Part shown: positions 24,100-50,344 of the stretch, piece after piece
How the letters are laid out: each line of letters begins with the position of its first letter
Position numbering within the stretch: position 1 is the stretch's first letter
NCBI RefSeq assembly: GCF_002113885.1
Contig: NW_018404603.1
Location: 171,571-235,570 of the forward strand
Length of the DNA stretch: 64,000 bases
Source: Mizuhopecten yessoensis
Taxonomy: Eukaryota
Direction of reading: 5' to 3'
The notes under the pieces: generated by a model
Databases searched by the model: none
What the model saw: only the letters and a program-made list of their open reading frames with translations
Told to the model about the DNA's origin: nothing
Program-made: the position numbers and the translations under genes

Positions 24100-24500
24100 A
24101 AGTAAACGAGAGTCATTGTATCGTGGTTTTATTTAACCGAGAAGTATGGTAAAGAAGTTTTACAGTATATAAACGAAAGACGTTGTTACATCGTGGTTTT
24201 ACTACAAGTAAACGAGGGGCATGATATTGAGGTTTTCTGCATGTAAACAAAAGACGTTATATCGAGGTTTTACTGTATGTAAAGGAGAGACATTATACAG
24301 AAATGTTACTATTTAAAACGAAGGCATTATATCGAAATTCTACTGTAAGTTACGAGGGGCATTATATCGAGGTTTCGTTACAAATAAATAAATGAGGTTA
24401 TATTGTAATTGTATAGATGGTTTACTGTGTATTTAAAAGGAGTTTCGAACTTTGTCTATGCATATACATCAACAAGGGACAGTATATCGAGTTTTTACTG
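24100..24500 (+). repeat. Degenerate minisatellite, ~35-bp unit (RTAAACGAGRGNCATTATATCGAGGTTTTACTG)
   Basis: About 10 diverged units with recurrent TAAACGA and TATCGAGGTTTT. Confidence 0.8.
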
Positions 24501-34720: not shown

Positions 34721-35130
34721 GCTATATCAAATGTTGTATGATATCATATAAATATGTAACATTCAGTGGATTACAGCAAGCTTATTCTTTCCGTGAACCT
34801 GCAGGGACGCTACAGAGCTTACAATATAACCGTTCATTAAGTGGAGAGTTCATGTACAAGTACACTGGGTCTAGCACACACTTACTTAATGACAGAGAAT
34901 CAAATCATAGACTGCCCCCTCGTCTCTAGAATATTGAATCATTTAGAAAAAAAACAACACCTTTATAATGTTGACCACTTGGATGCTTGATCCTAGCCAA
35001 AGTTCTCAAACAAAGGGGAGGTAAGCTAGTAGATTTAGTTAAATTTCAGCCAGTTATTTTTTCATTAAAAAACTGGTAGCCAGTCTAATGAAATCATAGC
35101 TCAGCATTTCAATGCATTACATGGATAACA

Positions 35131-37390
35131 TGTCTGATTTACAGTGGGTTGTTGATTTGTCCGATTTACAGTGGGTTGTTGATTTGTCCGATTATCAGTG
35201 GGTTGTTGATTTGTCCGATTATCAGTGGGTTGTTGATTTGTCCGATTATCAGTGGGTTGTTGATTTGTCCGATTATCAGTGGGTTGTTGATTTGTCCGAA
35301 TTACAGTGGGTTGTTGATTTGTCCGATTCCATGTAACAGTGGGTTGTTGATTTGTCCGATTATCAGTGGGTTGTTGATTTGTCCGAATTACAGTGGGTTG
35401 TTGATTTGTCCGAATTACAGTGGGTTGTTGATTTGTCCGAATTACAGTGGGTTGTTGATTTGTCTGATTTACAGTGGGTTGTTGATGATTTTTCTGATTT
35501 ACAGTGGGTTGTTGATTTGTCTGATTTACAGTAGGTTGTTGATTTGTCCGATTTACAGTGGGTTGTTGATGATTTGTCTGATTTACAGTGGGTTGTTGTT
35601 GATTTGTCCGATTTACAGTGGGTTGTTGATTTGTCGGATTAACAGTGGGTTGTTGATTTGTCTGATTTACAGTGGCGTGATGTTGATTTGTCCGATTTAC
35701 AGTGGGTTGTTGATTTGTCGGATTAACAGTGGGTTGTTGATGATTTGTCTGATTTACAGTGGGTTGTTGATTTGTCTGATTTACAGTGGCGTGTTGTTGA
35801 TTTGTCCGATTTACAGTGGGTTGTTGATTTGTCGGATTAACAGTGGGTTGTTGATGATTTGTCTGATTTACAGTGGGTTGTTGATTTCTCTGATTTACAC
35901 TGGGTTGTTGATTTGTCTGATTTACAGTGGGGTGTTGATTTGTCTGATTTACAGTGGGTTATTGATTTGTCCGATTTACAGTGGGTTGTTGATTTGTCCG
36001 CTTTACAGTGGGTTGTTGATTTGTCTGATTTACAGTAGGTTGTTGATTTGTCCGATTTACAGTGGGTGGTTGATGATTTGTCTGATTTACAGTGGGTTGT
36101 TGATTTGTCTCATTTACACTGGGTTGTTGATTTGTCTGATTTACAGTGGGGTGTTGATTTGTCTGATTTACAGTGGGTTGTTGATTTGTCCGATTTACAG
36201 TGGGTTTTTGTTGATTTGTCTGATTTACAGTGGGTTGTTGGTTTGTCTGATTTACAGTAGGGGGATGATTTGTCTGATTTACAGTGGGTTATTGATTTTT
36301 CCGATTTACAGTGGGTTGTTGATTTGTCCGATTTACAGTGGGTTTTTGTTGATTTGTCTGATTTACAGTGGGTTGTTGTTGATTTGTCCGATTTACAGTG
36401 GGTTGTTTATTTGTCCGATTTACAGTGGGTTGTTGATTTGTCCGGTTTACAGTGGGTTGTTGATGATTTGTCTGATTTACAGTGAGTTGTTGATGATTTG
36501 TCTGATTTACAGTGGGTTGTTGATTTCTCTGATTTACACTGGGTTGTTGATTTGTCTGATTTACAGTGGGGTGTTGATTTGTCTGATTTACAGTGGGTTA
36601 TTGATTTGTCCGATTTACAGTGGGTTGTTGATTTGTCCGCTTTACAGTGGGTTGTTGATTTGTCTGATTTACAGTGGGGTGTTGATTTGTCTGATTTACA
36701 GTGGGTTATTGATTTGTCCGATTTACAGTGGGTTGTTGATTTATCGGATTAACAGTGGGTTGTTGATGATTTGTCTGATTTACACTGGGTTGTTGATTTG
36801 TCTGATTTACAGTGGGGTGTTGATTTGTCTGATTTACAGTGGGTTATTGATTTTTCCGATTAACAGTGTGTTGTTGATTTGTCTGATTTACAGTGGGTTG
36901 TTGATAATTTGTCCGATTTACAGTGGGTTGTTGATTTGTCCGCTTTACAGTGGGTTGTTGATTTGTCTGATTTACAGTGGGGTGTTGATTTGTCTGATTT
37001 ACAGTGGGTTATTGATTTGTCCGATTTACAGTGGGTTGTTGATTTGTCGGATTTACAGTGGGTTGTTGATGATTTGTCTGATTTACAGTGAGTTGTTGAT
37101 GATTTGTCTGATTTACAGTGGGTTGTTGATAATTTGTCCGATTTACAGTGGGTTGTTGATTTGTCCGATTACATGTAACAGTGGGTTGTTGATTTGTCCG
37201 ATTAACAGTGGGTTGTTGATGATTTGTCTGATTTACACTGGGTTGTTGATTTGTCTGATTTACAGTGGCGTGTTGTTGATTTGTCCGATTTACAGTGGGT
37301 TGTTTATTTGTCCGATTTACAGTGGGTTGTTGATTTGTCTGATTTACAGTAGGGTGATGATTTGTCTGATTTACAGTGGGTTATTGATTT
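35131..37390 (+). repeat. Minisatellite, 27-bp unit GATTTGTCYGATTTACAGTGGGTTGTT, about 80 copies
   Basis: Directly visible. Length variants are +3 (extra GAT/GTT) and +6 (CATGTA). Produces the 765-aa LLICPIYSG ORF. Confidence 0.98.
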
Positions 37391-40336
37391 ATTTGCTCAT
37401 TTGTGCTTGCACGTCTAGGCATCAGCTACAAGTAAGATCATTTTGATGATTGCGTCCATCCATGTTGGGACCACTGAAGGATGGACACCTTCCCCCTACA
37501 GGTCGTGGAATGTCACTCGCCAGGTCGGAGTGACTTTGTTATAGATCGATATCAGGTGTGGTTTTGTGACTTGGAGTTTGGATGTGACGTATCGAGTCAA
37601 TGTTTTGTTCATATACTCACCAACCTATAAACCTATAAAGAGGTGTTACAATACAAGGATAATAACACTAACATAGTTATTGTATATGTATATACATTGT
37701 ATTTATTTTTGTATCAATAATTTAATTAACACGTGATTTGTAATTAAACCTATACACATATCAACAATGTATGTCAGGGGCATCGCAACCACCCCGTGAC
37801 TGACCTAAACAGAATGATAGAACGTAAAATATTTATCAGAAAGGGACCGTAACAAATAATCGAGTTAGGCCAAAGGTCACACGGTCTGACCTCCATGTAC
37901 AGTAGTGTATCGGTTAGCTTCATCACAACAGATGGCAAGCATAATAGCATTACTGGAAACGGCAGTACGCTTATCTCTGATATATTGGGTAAATTATCGT
38001 ACGTGAAGAATTTTCTATATTTATTGCATAACCGTCAGAAATATCGTCATTTCCGGCAGTTCTTGGAAATGCGATCCTACCGATGTGTCTAGATAGCGTA
38101 ATTGTAGGTGCAGGTAAGGACGGACCTACTTTTTGTCAAGGGAGGAGGGGGAATGTCCAGTTTATACATTTTGCTGCTCCTTAAATTACTCTATATAATC
38201 GTACGCGTTGTAAAGACAAAGGTGGCAAAAAGGGAAATGAATCGGAGTTAAGTATTTCTCTGTACATCCGGCTTTTGTGTCTTGCGTTCGTCTTCTTTAC
38301 CTTTTTTCGCGCAATTTCCAGCGCACTACATTTGATACATGTTTTCAATATTGTTTGATGGTGTGTAAGAAGCAGAGCCATCTCTGGCATTAGGTACGGA
38401 TACGATCCTTTAAGCAAGGATATAATATTGCTCACAGACTGTCGGCAAGACTCGGATCCCTACAAAATAGCTCATCCTTTGCGCATGAATGAATTTATCT
38501 GTACCTCACATTAGGAATAAATTCAATCATTATTCCTGTTGGCTAAAGAATTCCATCCTACCTAGATGTTTTTTTTCTTTTTCTATGTGATCCTGCTTGG
38601 ACAAACGCTTGTGGTGTCACATTGAAAACAACTGAATGACGCCACTATCTTTAACCAATTGCCGACAAAATGTATTGTAGCTACAATTTAAGCTTTTGGC
38701 TAACGGAACTTTATTTTTGTATACTGTATCGTTCGATTGCAACAATACCTTTTTTAATTACTGAGGGAAATTGATCGTCGGTGAGACCTTCGGGCAAAAC
38801 CTTTGACCCTCGGGCAAAATCTCAAGCTGGACATTTTTGAATTTTGTCCATTGAAATGCGATTTTTTTTAACCCTCAAAGTGTTGATATATTTCATAAAT
38901 CTTTAAAACGCGCACAAAACACTCTGATAAGTACAAACCACACGTACATGTATCAGTTCAGACACAATGTATAAGTATGCATTGAAATCAGCTTAACCGC
39001 TCTTTGATACTTCGAACATTTGTTGTACACCCAGTTCTGAACCGTACACTTGTGTTAGGGAATATTACCGTAGCTGCAGTGCCTCTATTCTTTACGGGAA
39101 AATGACAATGTATGACGTGATATGCATTGTAGCGTTGTACGAGGTCATTGTAATTGCACTTATACAGGACGAGGCTTCGTCACTGGTATATAGGTTAAAT
39201 ACCTGTTGCCGTAAAGCTAACGTATCAGGAGAATGAGTAATGGCAGTGTATGAAACATAACAATATCATTGTTTCCTTTATCTTCATCCGGCAATTATCT
39301 TCGCGATAACCGAGCCGTGCGTACTACTACGCCACCTAGTGTCAGCTCCACACTGCTTATCCCGGGAACTTCAGCACGCGCAAACACAAATCTTACGTAG
39401 CTGATTGTCAATGCAACTGACACACGTGTTAAAAAACATACACTCTAGAATCTACAGTTAATTATATCCTATATATAAACTTGAGATTTTTGCTTAAGCC
39501 CGAGGACAATTCGTATTGAATTTTTATGCCGATAACAAGGCTTGTGAATTTGGTGTAACTATGTGTACCGGTAGCTTCGTCATGTCCATGCGATCCTGTG
39601 CACCAACCATTATGTGATATATGCACGTGCTGGGGGTAATTGCCCCAAACAGTCTCGGTGACACGCGAGGTCGAGCATGATTTATACGTGAAGCAATAGA
39701 GTTAATGTTTCTGTAATTGATAAAGAGATGATGATTTTTTTATACCGTTCACGATTCAGACAGGAGGGGTCGTTTATCATAATTTTGCTACAACAATTAT
39801 TGGACTAGTATTTTGCTACGAGAACATACAGTTGAGAGATAAAGACATTTTCTGAACCACATGTTTTGTTAATGTTAACACAAATTAGGATTATCATACT
39901 TGTGTCGTCCGTGTTGTTTTCCTTATTGTTATTCTGTGTTAGCCGAATAACTCCATTGGAATTGTTATGTAACGTGGCATAGCAGTATTGATCGGTAGCG
40001 ACCTATTATGTGAGGAATCCTTGGTTGGCTTAATCTGTCTCTCTCGTGTTTCCATCTATAGTCTTTGGTTCAATAAATGTCAACCACGGGGTCTTTGATA
40101 TCGCCTTTTGGGAACAGATGCTGACAAAACGAGCAACCTCACTGTAATAGTCGGCAATAACCACTTGATGCATTATACAAATCTGAATTGCAATACGGTG
40201 CCTTACACATCCGCGGTGCATGTAATGAATGGAACTGTTCTTATACGCATGCTTGGATTCTGTGCTCAAACCCACTTTATTGTACCTAACTAAATCATGT
40301 GACACTGTCGAAGGGTCAAGTGTAAACAATGAAAAA

Positions 40337-40585
40337 TACGGGGGCTTATATATGACATTTCGTCTTATGGTTTTGTCGCCCGCGAAAAGACGCCAAGCGA
40401 CAAAGCGAAAAAACGAAAGATTCAAACCCGCCAAAGCGTATAAAAATACAAAGAGAGGGAGAAAAGTTGCAATTTTATTTTCGCTTTGGCGGGTTTTCTC
40501 GTCTTTTTGTAATTATGTTTTGTCGCTTGGCGTCTTTCCGCGGGCAACAAAGCAAAAAGGCGAAAATGCATTATAAGCCACCATA
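40337..40585. mobile_element. Palindromic (foldback) MITE, ~245 bp, bounded by TA
   Basis: Left arm GGCTTATA..CATTTCGTCTT..TTTGTCGCCCGCGAAAAGACGCCAAGCGACAAA matches the reverse complement of the right arm. Inner AAACCCGCCAAAGCG / CGCTTTGGCGGGTTT pair is perfect. TA at 40337-38 and 40584-85. Confidence 0.85.
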
Positions 40586-40828
40586 GAAAACGGTATTCGG
40601 TTTTGAGTCTCCACAATGCTCTCCACAATGTTCTCACAGACCGTTGACAAAATGTGATTGTTATCAACTCACCATCGGGACAAGAAACTGGGGTTGAGTT
40701 CAGTATATCTGTTTGAGTAGGAGAACGGTTTCATGAGTACGGACCTCGGTGATACGTGTCATGTATAGTAAAACAGCGTTATGTAAAAGTTGTTTGAGTC
40801 ATGAACAGCATCGAAGAAAGCAAATTGG

Positions 40829-41067
40829 TCATTCGGAATACCCTGCACGACGAGCATGAACGCACATTGGTAATCAGCAAATCATTCGGAATACCCTGCA
40901 CGACGAGCATCAGAATACCCTGCACATTCGGAATACCCTGCGCGACGAGCATGAAAGCACATTGGTAATCAACAAATCATTCGGAATACCCTGCACGACG
41001 AGCATGAAAGCACATTCGGAATACCCTGCACGACGAGCATGAAAGCACATTGGAAATCAACAAATCA
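40829..41067 (+). repeat. Irregular tandem repeat, 53-bp base unit with truncated units
   Basis: Six copies of GAATACCCTGC within units of TCATTCGGAATACCCTGCACGACGAGCATGAAAGCACATTGGTAATCAACAAA. Confidence 0.92.
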
Positions 41068-43523
41068 AAAGTGGCAATGAAAACAATCAATTGTATGATA
41101 TAAATAACGATAGCTATTTATTACAGTATCAATAAACAATGACTGATGTTGACACATAATCTCATTATATTCCTATTTACCGATAGCTGTTATTGATACA
41201 GAACCACTGATATCGATAGCCTATACAAGGTTCGTGTGTCATCCACTGCTGGACCTTAAGATGGTCATATCATTGGTCCAGACATTCAAATCTTAGACCG
41301 CCGGTCCTCTAGTGCAATGTATACCCGACCACATATTGATCATAATAGGGCACATAGGCAAACGTGTCCGGCGCTTGTACGGGGAGATTTCAACGTGTTT
41401 CCATGTTTAAAACTGACGGATTGTTTAAAAACTATTAAGTACAGTTACAAATATTTCAAACTAAGTCATTTTAATATTATTTACTTGTTATGAAAGCAAG
41501 ATAAATAATAAAATAAAGATACAGAAATACTTTAAACGCGTCCCTTTTTACGTGAAAACTCCTGTCCGGTCCGATTAGTTCATACCGGGTAACGTGATAG
41601 ATAACATGCTAATATTATCTTTATCTAATAGATAGCCAATTAAAGACCGCCCGGGGTAAACAAAACAAATTAACGCCATCCCGCCCGGCCCATTCCGCGC
41701 GATCATATGATATAACGATCGATCGATCTTCCCTCCCATCGGCCGGCCGCCCTCCCATTAGACCGGTAAATGCGTTATAAAATGTCCGCACAGAATTAAT
41801 GAAGAAAGCTATTAATACATGGGACACAATAGGCAAGCTACGGGGCTATGTCTACAGGGGTGATTAAGCTCCATGTCCGTATAAGGTCATCCGCGGTTAT
41901 TAGGCGTTTATAAACAGGCTTCTGCATCTGTGGGTGTGCATGTTATCGACCGCGCGGTCAATATCTAGTGAGGAATAAAGAAAACGCCATAAGGTGTGGA
42001 TTTTGTTATCAATGGTCATAATTGCGTGTTTTTATCACCAATATGTCTCTGTTTAGATTCGTTACCAATCATAACGCCCCATTGTGTAAATAGGACTCAT
42101 TGCGGACACGTCAGGTGTGCCAACAGTGCAAATCACCAACAATGTTCCACATTTTTCATTTTGTTCTAAGAAAAATCTCATCCGTGTTTTCGTCCATCGT
42201 CTTACTTTGTGCTGGTCATCCAGATGGGGTTTTGCTTTCGAAAAAAATGTATCCCCTTAAAAATGCGTTCGAAACTTGAGATACAAAATCAATTTTTTAA
42301 TGAATAAATAAAGTTTCCGAGTTAATCCAACGTACGAAATGAATAAAAACAACTTCAGCTATATACTCGGATCTTCTATAGTTACATTTATCAGTTAGAA
42401 ATTATATTCAAAATCAACTCTTTTACTCAATTTTAATAGTAAAATGACATTTACTGTTCTATTCGTTGCTTACATGTATATCTTCGCGACTCCAAATTGT
42501 CAAATGCGCGAAAAAAGATTTAGCTGTCTGGTTGTTCAAAATCGCAAGGAAATGAGATGCTAGTCTGCAAAATCTTAGTATTAATCAATAAAAATATGGT
42601 TTAATTAGTGAGAAGCATTCCATTCGTTCAAACTTGTGTTAACGGAGTTCCACGGTATTTATAAGGAATAAAATATTTTTACGATTTCAAGTGTTATTAA
42701 TGTGCCACTGGTTTGTCGTTTGTAACCGTCTACATGATGCACAGTTTGTATTTAAGTATGACATTAAAACTGCTAGCCTAAGAGAGGGCTACTTGTGTAA
42801 ATTGCATTTCTGCAGAATGTAACTCCGGGCGAGAAATATGTGACACTTTTCAAAACATTAAATATAAATTCCGTGCCTGTTTCTAATTAGAGATGCACTT
42901 CACACCTACCAAAGTGCTAAACATATCCACACATTTCAGCTGTAGGTTCGACAGGTACGCGAGTTGATGAGTGAGGTCCTGATGAACTTACCACCTTGAC
43001 TTATATATATAGACTTTTCCTGAGGTCTGGTTTACACCGACTTACCAGCTTAAACAACCATTAACTCAGATTTACATAATGAAACTTGGAAGCATTGTTT
43101 TTAATTATGAGTGTGTCGTAATTTTTTACAAATGTTTGTTTTTCATGCATAAATTTATACATTTAGTGATTTAATTTCTGTGTTGTTTTTTTGTATATTA
43201 CCTTATGAGTTTAATTTAAATTTAGAAATAAATTCAGTTTTATGAATAGATCAACAAATGCGGTGTTCAAAAGTGTTTATTTAGCAGAGATTATCTATCA
43301 ATATTAATACTATATATATACTAGTACATTTTCTGGTGGGGCCTTAAACAGGTGTTGTCTTAAGAGAGAGGAGCAGGTTCTATATTAAGTGGATTTTCCT
43401 TTCAGCTACGTGTAATAATGCGTATTATGACTTACATCCCACCAGAATAACAGATAAATGGTCATCTATTACACGTAACATACACCCAATGTCTTCTCTT
43501 ATCTATCAAAACAAAACAAAAAT

Positions 43524-44100
43524 CGGCGCTAGGGTTCGACTCTTGTATATACACTGGGCGCTATAGTTCGATTTTGGTACATACATTGGGTTTTAGGATT
43601 CGACTCTGGTATATACATTCGGCGCTATAGTTCGAACTTGGTACATACATTGGGCGCTAGGGTTCGATTTTGGTACATACATTCGGCGCTATAGTTCGAT
43701 TTTGGTACTTACATCGGACAATAGGGTTCGACTTTGGCACACACCTTGTGCGCTAGTACCGGGACCCTAAAGTCGAAATGGTACGGACACTGGATGTTAC
43801 TTTTGGCGCCATAAAATGGGTTTGATAATACACTGTGCGATTGTATTGGGACTCCGGTGTCGGCTTAAGTACATACATTTGGCACTAGTGCTTGGACTCG
43901 AAATCCGCCATTGCGGTCCTGTACATACACTTGACATCAGTATTTCGGGCCTATAGATACATTTGGCGCTAGAACTGGAGCCCTAAAGTGTCCCTTGATA
44001 CATACATAGTGCATGCATTAAATATTGGGACTCCGGAGTCGCCTTTGGTTCATACAAGTTGGGACTATAATTGGGACCCAAGCGTCGCCGGTGATACATA
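43524..44100 (+). repeat. Minisatellite, 32-bp unit SGGCGCTAKRGTTCGAYTTTGGTACATACATT, grading into degenerate ~45-bp units
   Basis: Units start at 43524, 43556, 43588, 43620, 43652 and 43684 (exact 32-bp period). Later units gain GGGACTCCGGAGTCG. Confidence 0.88.
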
Positions 44101-45064
44101 CGATCATAGACCTACATGCATACACTAATCTTTGTGTCGGTTTCTGATCAGATACTCGCTCTATATTAGTCGTACTTAATCATTATTGTTATGACACTTT
44201 TCATTAACTTCATTTTTTTGACTTCGTTCACTTGAATACCGTTCTGCACCATCATACTTTACATACCAAATCATTTTAAGTCGCATGAAAAGTCTAAGAG
44301 TAAAATAAAGTTTATATACTACAACTTTTATAGCATTATGGTTTTGACCTAGCGTGAACTCGGTGATAATAAGGTTATCCCCCTTTGTTCGCAAAAAAAA
44401 ATTGTACGTGAAATCAATGTTGTCATTCAACAAAAGATTATATTCAGACCATACTTTTACAAAATTGTAAAACTTGACATTACTCGGCTCCATTAAACAA
44501 TAAAGTTAAGAAAATAATCGAAATGTTCTCCAATTTAACAAGCGTGTACACATGTCAAACTGTCCAAGATGCCCTCAAAGCAGTGGTCAAAGGGAGATAA
44601 ATAGGACATGATTATGATTCAATCTGACCCTTGTTCTAGTGAAAATCTCAGTACATTTTTTGTACTGGTGTTCTGTTGTACCAAACACTGAAAGCTTAAC
44701 AAGTGCAGTGATGCACTTCTGTTTGATACAGTTTATATGCACACTATACACCAACGCCAGCGTAACTTACTTTCACGAAAGGAAGACGAAACCAATTCAT
44801 TACACTAAATCCGAAAGCTTCCTGGATGCCTGTCGGCGCCCATCTGCACTGTATCAGGAAATGTACGAGGTAATTGAAGATTTATCGATGGTATGTTAGA
44901 CTCCTGTAACAAAACATACTACCGGTATCGATTTCCTGCCAATTTGTAGTTGATTGGTCGACTGAACTGTGCACAATGCTCCGTTTATACGTAAACTGCA
45001 GAAAGTCGTTGTTTGATAAGTAAATAAGTCTGTATACTTAAATCGTTTACATACACGTTTTAAG

Positions 45065-45330
45065 TTTATATGTAAACGATTTTCCTAAGACGTAAACTTC
45101 TCTCTATAGTCATTATAGACAAAGAAGTCATAGATGTTGGCCAAAAACGACGAGTTTTATTGCACAATTCGATGTTTGTTTGTAAATTTACTAAACTACA
45201 GGAACTTGTTGTAGCCTGTTATATTATACATGTAAATGATTTTCCAAAGACGCAAATTTCTCACTGATCATTTAGTCATAGATGTTGTCCTTAAATGATG
45301 GATTTTATTGCTCAATGCTATGTTCGAACA
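45065..45330 (+). repeat. Diverged tandem duplication (~160-bp period)
   Basis: ATGTAAAYGATTTTCC.AAGACG.AAA.TTCTC...AGTCATAGATGTTG.CC...TTTTATTGC.CAAT occurs twice, with traces of a third copy. Confidence 0.8.
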
Positions 45331-46292
45331 TAAACTGAAGGAAGTGGTTTGATACTTCCGTTTCTCTCTATTCGTGTCGTCATAGACGATGGCTTAAATT
45401 GATGAATTTTATTAGATCACTGATCCATATTTATCGGAGTATGATTGGCTTGAAATAAAAATTAACGCAAACATTTGTTATGGAGCTTCTTTTCAAAAAC
45501 ATTAGAAATCGTGAAGAAATTATTCTTTTGAGGGAGTCAAAATGTCTCTCTGAAGTTATGAAAATTTCAAGAATAATTCCAAAACTAGAATACAAATAGA
45601 AATTAAAGAGGGAGAACGCGACTTGTCAAGCTTGTACAATCTCGAACCACCAGATCGCAGTGGATACAGGCCAACAGCCTCCGTCGGTATATAAACATGC
45701 CAGGCACGGCAGGTTATGAGAAGCTATGTGGGCTCTAGATGAGGGACAAGACGGCAACACATATCACTCCTCAACATTTTTCTGCTCGGTAATATGGCAG
45801 GCCGTTTGATTGACAGCCCACACACCGGTAAACAAGAGCACACCTGTCGTGTAACAGTAGTAGGAGTTCACGTGTCAGTTTCACGGTGTTAAGTATGCTC
45901 CGATGTGATCTGATAATGCCTGCCTCACGTCCGCAGATTGGTGCCAGGGAGGTGTTGATGTTACAAAAAATAGTTTAACAATGAAGCATGAATATATAAA
46001 CAGTTATTTAAAACCTGGTAATACAGCTTAAAATTACGTAGTTTAAGAAAAACGCGTGAAAAAATACTTACAAAACACGTGTTGAGCTATTTACACGATT
46101 ATCTCCCCTTCTTAGTTGTGTCTAACACAGTTTCCTTTCCTTGTATGATTAGTTTATTGGAATAGCAAAAAGAAAGGCCTGTCGATATACTTAGTCGCTA
46201 AGTGGTTTCTGTCAAACGGGTTCAATGTCCCTCAATGTAATACAGTCCCACTATTATATACAGTAGCGGAAGCTGAAGCACACTTCCGCAAT

Positions 46293-46364
46293 TGGCTTAC
46301 CCCACATGTGTTACCATAGCTACATGTATGGCTTACCCCACGTGTGTTACCATAGCTACATGTA
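46293..46364 (+). repeat. Near-perfect 36-bp tandem duplication
   Basis: TGGCTTACCCCACRTGTGTTACCATAGCTACATGTA twice, one mismatch. Confidence 0.95.
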
Positions 46365-46464
46365 TAGCTGACAAAAGGTAAACAATGTCTCTGCTTTAAG
46401 ACAACGGCTATGGACTAAAGTACATGTACATATATGTTGTGTGTATGGTTTTAGCAATAGAATG

Positions 46465-46635
46465 ATCGGTTGGCGCACCCGCCTTTTACCGGGATAGCCT
46501 GGGTTTGATTCCCTGATCAGACGTGAAAAGGTATGGGAACACCTGCCTGATCCCGTTGATTTTCACCTGGTACTCGTGTTTCCTCTCCTGTTCAGACCCA
46601 TAGACCAGGCCAACAAGAGTAATTGACATAAACGT
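46465..46635 (+). mobile_element. V-domain SINE, decayed copy with tRNA-like head
   Basis: GGTTGGCGCAC...GGGTTTGATTCCC (B-box-like), GACGTGAAAAGGTATGGG..CACCTGCC, GGTACTCGTGTTTCCTC and GGCCAACAAGAGTAATT, shared with the other copies. Confidence 0.85.
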
Positions 46636-49600
46636 ATTACTAGTTTCACGTGTAAAATAGATGAAGTATTGAACCAGAAAATACAGGCTTCACGTGGATC
46701 ACGTGACAGAAAACAACATGAAATGGACGCTCCTCACACTGACCAGACAATGACCATCAAATGGGCACTTCTACTGTACGTAATCTAAGCCACGCAGACA
46801 CGTGTAACTATCGAGAAACCCTTTACTTAACATACGTGCACCGAGGATGTAGTCACTAGGACGCGACTTTTGCCAATTTCCGCCAAATCGTGCTCAATAA
46901 AACGCTTTAAAGGAAATTACATGTATATATATATACTTGAACACATGGTGTAGACGATTTAGGACTCCGTACACGCACACTTTACGCTATTGGGGATACA
47001 CGGCAACAGATGAAGCTTGGTGTTTTCATTAGGTTACAATATCATTGTACTTTACAAAGAAACAATTGGGCTATTTTTGGAATAATTAACGTTCCCATTC
47101 CTTTAATCTAGCATAAGCGCTGTAATTGGCATTTCAGTACTTTTTTACGAGAACGATGCTGAATTCTATGAAATGGTGGCTCTCCTTTCCTTATCCTGAA
47201 ACCAGAAGTTCGTCAATTCGAAAGTGGTTTTATAACTGTGTACATCGGTATGCTGTTGTGTATTTTGCACCGGTTTCTTTTATACAGGATTTACACGTAT
47301 ATTAAAAAAATGAAAAGAGAACGTCCGATATTCCTGATGTGTGGATGCGAAAACATCACAACAACACTACTATCTCAACAGTCGGAGAGTTCAGATCTGT
47401 TCCATTGAGTTCAAAATTCAATCATTTTGAAATAGAAGTAACACTTAACACATTTTGAAAAAAAAGCGATTGAAATCTGTTATCTAAAAGCACAAAGGCA
47501 GTGATTTTTGTCAGATTCATGCAAAATGATAGTGACTTTTGCAGATCACGTGTTCATTCGATAGCCAAACACACTACCTGTTACATACACCAATACCAAA
47601 TTTGTAGTTGTATACATGAAGCTCAACTCCGGCGCCAGTCATATGTCGACGGAGGTCAAAGGAGGCACCACGGAAAATATTGAAGGCTATATATATGCCA
47701 GTCAAACCTAGTCATAGTAGTGATGTAGTATATCATTTTCAGCGTCTCTTTAAATTTGAATAGGAAACATTAATAAGACGTCTATAATAAAGAAAACCAC
47801 CAGTGAGCCATGTACCTTATTCATGTAGTGTGTCTTTGTCAGCACCTATTAACGTGTATGTCAATGTCAGCACATCTTTGCAATTACCAAAAGAAAGAAA
47901 AATACCATATCTATATTGATAATAATGTACCCTTGCATAAAATAATTTTCAGTCTTTGAAACAATTCTTTTCGATAGAATTAACGATAGTTCGATAAAAG
48001 CGGCTATTTATCCGCAGACACTCGAAGAGCAGACTACGCCAAAACGATCGTTTTCGAATTGATAGAAATTCTGGAAACCTTAAAAGAAAACACACTTTTT
48101 ATATTGATGCATTTTCATTCTGTTATCTCCGATCTCCGTAATTGCCTACAAAACTGCCCCACTGTGGAAGTATTGATATTTCAAGCGTTCCATCGTAAAT
48201 TCTGGTGAATAGCTCCGTTAGCTTCCATCTTTCACAAAACAGGAAGTGCTCAGGCGGCCATCAAACTTACGATGACGTAACTGTAATTGCTGGCGGGAAC
48301 TGTGGGTTTACGACACAATTAGCATCTTAAAAGAATTTTTTTCGTTGAGCGCACTTTGCTGTCCAATTTGTCGAAGACTTTTATGTGTTCAAATCGATAA
48401 CTATTTTACACAATCTCTGCTCTCGCGCAGAACGTGACGGCTCGGTGTTTGTTTCTTAAAGTTGTCCCATGCAGACAGTTCAATTTCACATCGATAAATA
48501 GGGAGAAGAGAAAAAACAGTCTTACGGCAAAACCACCGCCTGGTGAAGAGGCCAACGGCATTGTTTTTCTCCGAGGAAAAGATGGAAACGTTTCTCGATG
48601 GATTCGTTCTAGACTACACAAAGCAGGAACTTATAAACCTAATCAGCAACATAGACATCAAATTTGAAGACTGAACAGAAGATTAATAGCATATCTGGGT
48701 TTTTTTATAGTTAATATCCATATCAAATAATGGATTTCGAAACAATTAAAAAATATATGTAGAAATACCTACAAACTAGACAACGCCATGTTCTCGTGAC
48801 AAGGAAAGACTTCTATTAACAATGCTTTTGCAGAAAATAAAATAAAAATATTACCACAAGCACTTATATAACTTCAAACAATTTGAGTGGTTGTAATGCA
48901 TTATATAAACTAGCACTTTGTTTTTAAATGCAATATTCCACGGTCATAATTAGAAATTAGAATTTAAATATTGGGTAATTTGATGCAGTTGAGACTACTA
49001 CTGACCTGTCAAATTATTTTAAAAAAAGACATAACCAGATTCAAAGTAAAAAACAAATGCTGTTAAATCAGATTCAGAACATAAAATTTGCTTCTAAATG
49101 GGAAGCGCTTGGTTGCAAAACGATCGTAAAGAGCACCGAACGACCTTTGTACAACCACAGACACTGTTTGCCGACAGCAGAGATTCGATCTGTATTGTAC
49201 ATTCTCCGTTTTTACGATAGAACATCGATGGTCATCAGCCTGTAACATCCACGATCATCTGAACGTTTAACACGTGCGGGAAATCCCCCGGTCCCAGCAG
49301 TCATACCGCGAACCCTTCCATATCACAGCACGAGACCCAGAGCATCACAAGACAAAGCGTTTTACTGACTTTGATAGACGTATCAGAGAAGGGCTACAAA
49401 TAGAATCAGTAGGAAAGGTAGTCAATGGTAAATAGTTCAGTGTTGCAAAATTATGACGTTTACCAGTCTCGGTCTGCCTTAGATCTAGAGCGTTTTGACA
49501 GCGCATGCGCTCAACTGGGCTCGAGTTCGCCCCCCGGGATCGGGGCCAAACATATTCGACAGTTGAAGATTTTACCTTAACGAAACATCTGATATCCTTT

Positions 49601-50344
49601 TTAATCATCGGCTGGGTAATTTATTTTGCGTAGTTAAGTAGGAACGCATTTCAAGGTAAACCAGACCGAAGTCACGTGGCTTTTTAAAGTAACAATGCAT
49701 GACTATTGCTGTACTGTAGTAGGCTTATGAAATATCCATCGGTAAACGGGACAAACAATATTTAGGCTTTCATTGTATAACGTCTTCAGGGAATTAGATT
49801 AATGGTTTTAGTGTGTTCTATCATTCCTAACTGTCAGACATCGTAACGTAGAGCTTGACAGACGATAGGACCGATACTTATATCTAATAAAAATCCATGG
49901 AAACGAACGGCAGTCGAAGGGAGACTACCAAATGTATAGTATTCTAGGTGGGTGTGTACTACCAATTTATTGATAGTTAACTAAAAAGATGTACTAATGT
50001 TGAACCTTTTAATTAATGCATGTGATAAAATTTATGCTTCTGTGCACATTGATACATATAAACACAAATTCTTGTTAAGAAAATAATCTGCAGTTTCTGT
50101 TTATCGATTTTCATTCACTTGACTCAAATGAGGTTTTTAAAAGGAACAGCAGAGACGTTACCGAATGAGCTCCACCAACTAATGTACATGCTATCTTGTT
50201 TCACATATATTAGGATTCTGTACCATCTATACTTTACCAAGGGTTGGTCTGAAATAAACAATCTCTTTATAGATGATTTAAAAATCTTGTTTGGATATCA
50301 GAAAAATCATTGACCCCGACGCCAAGAGTGTGACATCGTGGCCG

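What the first reader, a model, noticed from the sequence alone, without database searches (positions are those of the whole stretch)
37167..37209. TA to TACATGTA insertion caught beside its empty site in a minisatellite (Tc1/mariner-type footprint)
Seen: the unit at 37167-37182 reads GAT-TA-CATG-TA-ACAGT, while the next unit (37200-37209) reads GAT-TA-ACAGT. The difference is a TA duplication enclosing CATG. A one-mismatch version (GATTCCATGTAACAGT) sits at 35325-35340, at the other end of the array. Established: Tc1/mariner elements insert at TA, Tc1-type ends are CA...TG, and excision repair leaves TA-CA-TA, TA-TG-TA or TA-CATG-TA scars. Inference: the array preserves both the ancestral and the scarred allele, showing how TACATGTA arises in this genome.
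Basis: partly seen in the sequence, partly recalled or inferred. Interest (0 to 1): 0.7.

Follow-up and report, generated by a model that had tools for sequence, protein, structure and literature searches.

The report
Probable transposon scar in a minisatellite
One unit of a 27-letter tandem repeat has six extra letters (CATGTA after a TA) beside a unit that lacks them; this is likely the scar of a cut-and-paste jumping gene, one of very many TACATGTA words in this animal genome, which also holds a pogo-type jumping gene with matching ends.

Summary
Observation confirmed: 37150-37182 differs from the next unit only by CATGTA after TA; a one-mismatch twin lies at 35308-35340. The 'empty' core is a minority allele (6 of 81 units). 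At this site the case is weaker: its flanks are among the least used (rank 60 and 62 of 64), no filled allele was seen, direction is unrooted, and a 13-of-15 match to the unit's core lies at the array's left edge, so copying from the flank is a real rival. Most Tc1 loci inspected end in CT and left no matching excess. The scan already noted this motif in at least 7 other genomes; the scar type is known from C. elegans. New here is a named candidate element.

The parts
35131..37390 (+). 27-bp minisatellite, about 81 units (27, 30 and 33 bp); single locus in this assembly
   Evidence: all 56 genome matches to a 20-base piece of the unit lie in this array
37150..37182 (+). 33-bp unit carrying TA-CATG-TA (TACATGTA at 37170-37177); 74th of 82 pieces
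37183..37209 (+). adjacent 27-bp unit with the TTAA core, identical except for the 6 bases (the 'empty' allele)
35308..35340 (+). second 33-bp unit, one mismatch (TCCATGTA); 8th of 82 pieces; most simply a copy of the same event (inference)
35116..35130 (+). left-edge sequence ATTACATG-GA-TAACA matching the 33-bp core with a 2-base gap; possible template or relic
   Evidence: same score in 3 of 5,000 random 40-bp windows, and 58 of 1,500 when 400 bp and both strands are allowed
24256..24277 (-). end of the candidate pogo/Tigger-type family (TA-CAGTAAAACCTCG) inside a degenerate tandem repeat, 11 kb from the array; shows the family is present in the window, not linked to the scar

Best explanation
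The 33-bp unit is a 27-bp unit plus CATGTA at a TA, and it is likely an excision scar of a TA-targeting, CA...TG-ended DNA transposon, most likely the pogo/Tigger-type CAGT family of this genome. Inferred steps: the element inserted at the TA of a TTAA-type unit and duplicated it; on leaving, a cut two bases inside each end left TA-CA and TG-TA; end joining in the germ line kept both two-base tails (sometimes adding one or two bases, giving the TACA-N-TGTA and TACA-NN-TGTA relatives); array turnover later copied the scarred unit, leaving one near each end, one of which mutated. Shown: the indel, the genome-wide excess, the indel class, the elements and their transposase, the flank correlation. 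Not shown: an element at this site, the cut offset of this transposase, the direction of change.
For: TACATGTA 544 vs 142.5 expected (both strands, order-3) in 1.23 Mb, top 8-mer at order 6; 269 of 272 sites have unique 28-base contexts. 5 of 30 six-bp and 2 of 16 seven-bp indels are TA-CA(N)TG-TA. Graded series CA-N0/N1/N2/N3-TG 3.8/2.3/1.75/1.2-fold. 1,168 exact matches to the CAGT end pattern vs 1 control; 1.27-kb copies match both sides of a 547-aa ORF with CENP-B_N, HTH_Tnp_Tc5 and DDE_1 domains, DD30D, next to the same end. Flanks of 78 ends (T49/C15 at +1, A36 at +2, T49 at +3) resemble the motif's excess flanks (T 0.40/C 0.37, A 0.42, T 0.53); Spearman 0.46, p 1.5e-4, vs 0.06 for two control words. 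TTAA links the other three cores by single changes (read directly), so it can be an old allele. Tc1 breaks have two-base 3' overhangs (PMC4490562); taCATGta is a known Tc1 footprint (PMC3520976).
Against: Focal flanks ATC/ACA rank 60 and 62 of 64 for the family's preference; TTACATGTAA is not enriched (18 vs 14.6); A at +1 in only 5 of 78 and 0 of 17 element ends. Near-copy of the core at the array edge. Excess is about 163 per Mb, by extrapolation of order 100,000 sites, against about a thousand exact ends; in rice Mariner insertions outnumber excisions about 2.6-2.8:1 (PMC4423477). CT-ended Tc1 loci are common (17 of 30; 10 of 30) yet TACTAGTA is not enriched (36 vs 33). C at +1 is 37% of the excess but 15 of 78 ends. 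+4 is the typical Tc1 product (78%, PMC13148408) but is 1 of 34 four-bp indels here. A third word, TATATGTA, also correlates (0.31). No TA/TACATGTA difference among the 12 of 72 indels shown for four other runs.
Confidence: 0.6

Rival explanations
1. The 33-bp unit was copied from the array's left edge: a break or template switch in a unit used ATTACATG(GA)TAACA at 35116-35130 as template (micro-homologies ATTA and TAACA), so it records no transposon visit to the array, whatever made the edge word.
For: 13 matched bases with one 2-base gap within 15 bp of the array start; 3 of 5,000, 4 of 1,500 and 58 of 1,500 in wider controls. One 33-bp unit lies about 190 bp away. Atypical target flanks. 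Templated inserts from nearby DNA are a known repair product (PMC4490562 passages).
Against: Needs a second event (loss or later gain of GA). The window was chosen after seeing the match. The six other exact TA-CATG-TA indels have no such template within 60 bp (scores 3-9, none 10), so templating is not the general source.
Confidence: 0.2
2. TACATGTA insertions at TA are real but come from a process other than transposon excision (an unknown TA-directed repair or insertion bias), or are partly kept by selection as binding sites.
For: Scars far outnumber visible elements; CT-ended Tc1 families left no matching word; no filled/scarred pair seen; the word is the preferred Irx site and an abundant promoter motif in Phytophthora, whose authors did not expect it to be a footprint (PMC3520976).
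Against: Inserted bases equal the ends of resident elements and the flank bias follows their target preference. CpG decay of TACGCGTA would enrich TATGCATA equally (100 vs 75.6 only) and cannot add bases. Selection does not explain a copy inside a minisatellite.
Confidence: 0.12
3. Direction is reversed: the founding unit was 33 bp and held TACATGTA; loss of CATGTA between the two TAs gave the TTAA unit and then the majority, leaving 33-bp relics at both edges.
For: The two 33-bp units are 8th and 74th of 82 pieces and differ from each other; TTAA is the hub of the core variants; equal parsimony; no outgroup.
Against: Requires a founder containing TTACATGTAA (9 sites in 1.23 Mb) plus an exact deletion that swept 79 of 81 units; where direction can be read elsewhere the short form is commoner (empty 3, filled 1 at L089).
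Confidence: 0.08

Closest known systems
Tc1 excision footprint taCATGta of Caenorhabditis elegans (Eide and Anderson 1988, seen only as cited in PMC3520976 and PMC13148408)
   Same: Identical letters: TA duplication enclosing the two terminal bases of each end; two-base 3' overhangs (PMC4490562).
   Different: Rare in the worm, where +4 is typical (78%); here +6 dominates and +4 is 1 of 34 four-bp indels. The main candidate here is pogo/Tigger-type (DDE_1, DD30D), not Tc1 (DDE_3).
pogo-superfamily excision footprints: Passer (0-4 bp, target AAGTACTT; PMC9976928) and Emigrant/Lemi1 (PMC1636448)
   Same: TA target, terminal bases left behind, non-autonomous derivatives of a pogo-like element; pyrimidine next to the TA.
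   Different: I saw no passage giving CATG as the main product or a cut offset for pogo-type enzymes; genome-scale accumulation is not described there.
TACATGTA promoter motif of Phytophthora / Irx homeodomain site (PMC3520976; PMC11134190 search listing only)
   Same: Same abundant palindrome.
   Different: Read there as a binding site; here it behaves as an indel at TA in repeats.

Membership tests
IS630/Tc1/mariner-superfamily excision footprint | TA target duplicated around the added bases, with an empty TA allele | tested here: met
   5 of 30 six-bp indels
IS630/Tc1/mariner-superfamily excision footprint | Added bases equal the termini of a resident TA-flanked element | tested here: met
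   CAGT family; CACTG Tc1-like family
IS630/Tc1/mariner-superfamily excision footprint | A cognate transposase in the genome | tested here: met
   547-aa ORF, DDE_1 E 2e-44, beside one matching end; second end not found in the DNA held
IS630/Tc1/mariner-superfamily excision footprint | Flanks of the motif follow the element's target preference, genome-wide | tested here: met
   Spearman 0.46, p 1.5e-4 over 64 flank triplets; C at +1 under-explained
IS630/Tc1/mariner-superfamily excision footprint | Flanks of this site fit the target preference | tested here: inconclusive
   rank 60 and 62 of 64; A at +1 occurs in 4 of 27 ends of one subfamily, so not excluded
IS630/Tc1/mariner-superfamily excision footprint | Element-bearing allele at the same site | not tested
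   no reads were laid on the array; no second locus
IS630/Tc1/mariner-superfamily excision footprint | Two-base cut offset of this transposase | not testable with these tools
   needs an excision assay; no paper held all five terms
Tc1 family in the narrow sense as main source | Abundant CA-ended Tc1 elements and a mainly +4 footprint | tested here: not met
   CA-ended family has 18 exact ends; 0 of 30 top DDE_3 loci and 5 of 30 HTH loci CA-ended; +4 is 1 of 34

The most novel reading that the evidence does not exclude
A pogo/Tigger-type family has written on the order of 100,000 six-to-eight-base scars into this genome, making it the leading single source of six-base indels, with germ-line end joining that keeps both overhangs and adds up to two bases; the same family type would explain the TACATGTA excess that the scan sees across marine invertebrates, and would seed Irx-type binding words genome-wide.
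Probability: 0.4. Interest if true: 0.65.

Novelty: new member of a known kind. Interest (0 to 1): 0.38.

Why it matters
The single site is ordinary and not the best example of its class. Its value is as an entry to a genome-wide pattern: if TACATGTA words are excision scars, they are a countable record of past cut-and-paste activity and of germ-line repair, largely invisible to repeat annotation. I found no paper describing this for animal genomes (searches; open-access library only). Having a candidate element with an open transposase frame makes the idea directly testable.

Tried and rejected
Outgroup for the array: none; the only other hit is a 32-bp array at 68% identity. Tc1 (DDE_3) as main source: ends mostly CT, no TACTAGTA excess. 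Three-base-offset scar TA-CAG-TA: only 1.19-fold and 0 of 32 five-bp indels. CpG decay: rejected. Elements preferring their own scars: 6 of 1,168 ends follow TACATG, against 2.9 naive and 8.9 after flank preference, so no extra preference. TIR-pair and alignment-end screens of the 1.2-Mb sample found no very abundant CA-ended short element (outputs of 36 and 40 were cut in the middle). A 3-kb end pair was mostly an assembly gap. Contigs of four other runs over 37450-50300: 12 of 72 indels shown, none TA/TACATGTA although 7 motif sites lie there; inconclusive. Coding role of the array: one + frame is open for 784 codons but few single changes could stop it; not pursued. Eide and Anderson 1988 and Plasterk 1991 were not held.

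Full report
Observation. The array spans 35131-37390, period 27, 81 copies. Cut into 82 pieces, 81 cores could be classed: 64 TTTA, 6 TTAA, 5 TTAT, 4 ATTA and two 33-bp units, 8th and 74th in order. The 33-bp unit at 37150 and the next unit are identical but for CATGTA. TTAA is one change from TTTA and from TTAT, so it can be old (direct reading). All 56 genome matches to a 20-base piece of the unit are in this array; the only other DNA hit is a 32-bp array at 68%. The direction of change is therefore unrooted.

Is the word special? The window is in a 988-Mb assembly; I did not determine the taxon. In the window TACATGTA occurs 23 times, 22 in 55.8 kb outside tandem repeats against 3.1 expected. 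I sampled 141 sequences (the window, its contig, one more contig and 50-kb blocks of large contigs taken from a transposase hit list, so not a random sample): 1.41 Mb, 1.23 Mb after masking. There the word has 272 sites, 544 on both strands against 142.5 (order 3), and is the top 8-mer at order 6. 269 of 272 contexts are unique, so it is not one repeat family; by ratio it is 7th of 256 palindromes, the others being rare words except TGACGTCA. Relatives with one, two or three bases in the middle are 2.3, 1.75 and 1.2-fold; TACATA is 1.05-1.15-fold and TACAGTA 1.19-fold.

Does it behave as an indel? All-against-all alignment gave 545 clean indels; of 30 six-bp events 12 have a TA duplication and 5 are exactly TA-CATG-TA (p 5e-6; 9e-5 if one is dropped), with 2 of 16 seven-bp events TA-CA(A/T)TG-TA, 1 of 34 four-bp TA-CA-TA and 0 of 32 five-bp TA-CAG-TA. 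Some events are repeated through segmental duplications and none were removed. A second, exact-flank screen including tandem repeats found 5 of 38, the focal site among them. Direction is readable in few cases. Contigs of four other runs laid on 37450-50300 showed only 12 of 72 indels; none was TA/TACATGTA, one was TA/TACATA at 46427 in 3 of 4 runs. The array itself was not covered.

Is there an element? Tc1-type transposases are many (150 scored of 835 candidates), but 17 of 30 top loci have CT ends and none CA; among 30 HTH loci 10 are CT-ended and 5 begin TA-CACTG, a small family with 18 exact ends. TACTAGTA is not enriched. A pogo/Tigger-type family (label from recall plus Pfam) is larger: 1,168 exact matches to its TA-CAGT end pattern against 1 control, some of them in tandem arrays rather than at element ends; copies of 180 bp to 1.3 kb without a long frame, many 94-98% alike. 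The best DDE_1 locus holds a 547-aa frame with CENP-B_N, HTH_Tnp_Tc5 and DDE_1 domains and DD30D spacing, has this end downstream, and matches the 1.27-kb copies on both sides of the frame; its other end was not found in the DNA held. Flanks of 78 unique ends from 70 loci among the first 100 listed matches read T/C, A, T outward; so does the excess of TACATGTA, and enrichment falls from 5.4 to 2.2-fold across quartiles of the family's preference (rho 0.46; 0.06 for two control words, 0.31 for TATATGTA, a one-change neighbour). The family does not prefer its own scars beyond that.

What weakens the reading at this site. Both flanks begin with A, a class with no excess (18 vs 14.6) and ranked 60 and 62 of 64. 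And 35116-35130, at the array's left edge, matches the 33-bp core at 13 bases with a 2-base gap, a score reached by 3 of 5,000 random 40-bp windows and by 3.9% of 400-bp windows on both strands; six other exact indels have no such neighbour. Genome-wide, the excess of 163 per Mb extrapolates to about a hundred times the exact ends counted, which is unexplained.

Mechanism. [quoted passage not shown] No supplements or figures were seen; footprint sequences in figures and supplements of these papers may bear on the cut offset. Inferred: a two-base offset for the CAGT transposase and joining that keeps both tails. I put this at 0.6 for the site, copying from the edge at 0.2, a non-transposon source at 0.12 and reversed direction at 0.08; these are judgements, not computed values.

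Verdict. A real indel of a known scar type, in a genome where that scar type is abundant and a fitting element exists, but an atypical and unproven example. Interest 0.38.

Noticed in passing
window 24150-24500: Degenerate 35-36-bp tandem repeat built from the end of the pogo-type CAGT element; similar arrays of this end occur on C690, C788 and in L276.
   Followed up: partly
window 35092-37446 +: The whole array is one open frame of 784 codons (GLLICPIYS-like); all unit lengths are multiples of three; the minus-strand frame is broken by stops. Probably chance.
   Followed up: no
window 38759-38914: 156 bp absent from all four other runs laid; no inverted ends or target duplication evident.
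   Followed up: partly
window about 40337-40590: High-copy short element (depth over 1,000-fold) with TA-flanked inverted ends beginning (C/T)GG.
   Followed up: no
window about 46490-46620: Very high-copy repeat, tRNA-like SINE by recall, not tested.
   Followed up: no
window 46421-46436: TACATGTA followed by a polymorphic +4 (TA/TACATA) absent in 3 of 4 runs: a possible second, Tc1-type scar or slippage.
   Followed up: partly
window 46293-46369: 36-bp duplication carrying TACATGTA in both copies.
   Followed up: no
L197:22-3181 and the 1.23-Mb sample: A DDE_1 element with TA-GG ends exists and TAGGCCTA is 2.7-fold enriched (18 sites vs 6.8); TACCGGTA 1.9-fold. Would fit the same two-base rule.
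   Followed up: partly
L042-L070, L214-L240: Three CT-ended Tc1 families of 1.2-1.7 kb with no matching TACTAGTA excess.
   Followed up: partly
L083:7207-7396, L021:6350-6440: Abundant 190-bp TA-flanked inverted-repeat element and about 90-bp TTAA-flanked element families.
   Followed up: no
L017 (G000:C4117): 32-bp minisatellite sharing two short blocks with the array unit; relationship unclear.
   Followed up: partly
1.23-Mb sample: TGACGTCA is 4.2-fold enriched (109 sites); partly within a repeat family, not examined.
   Followed up: no
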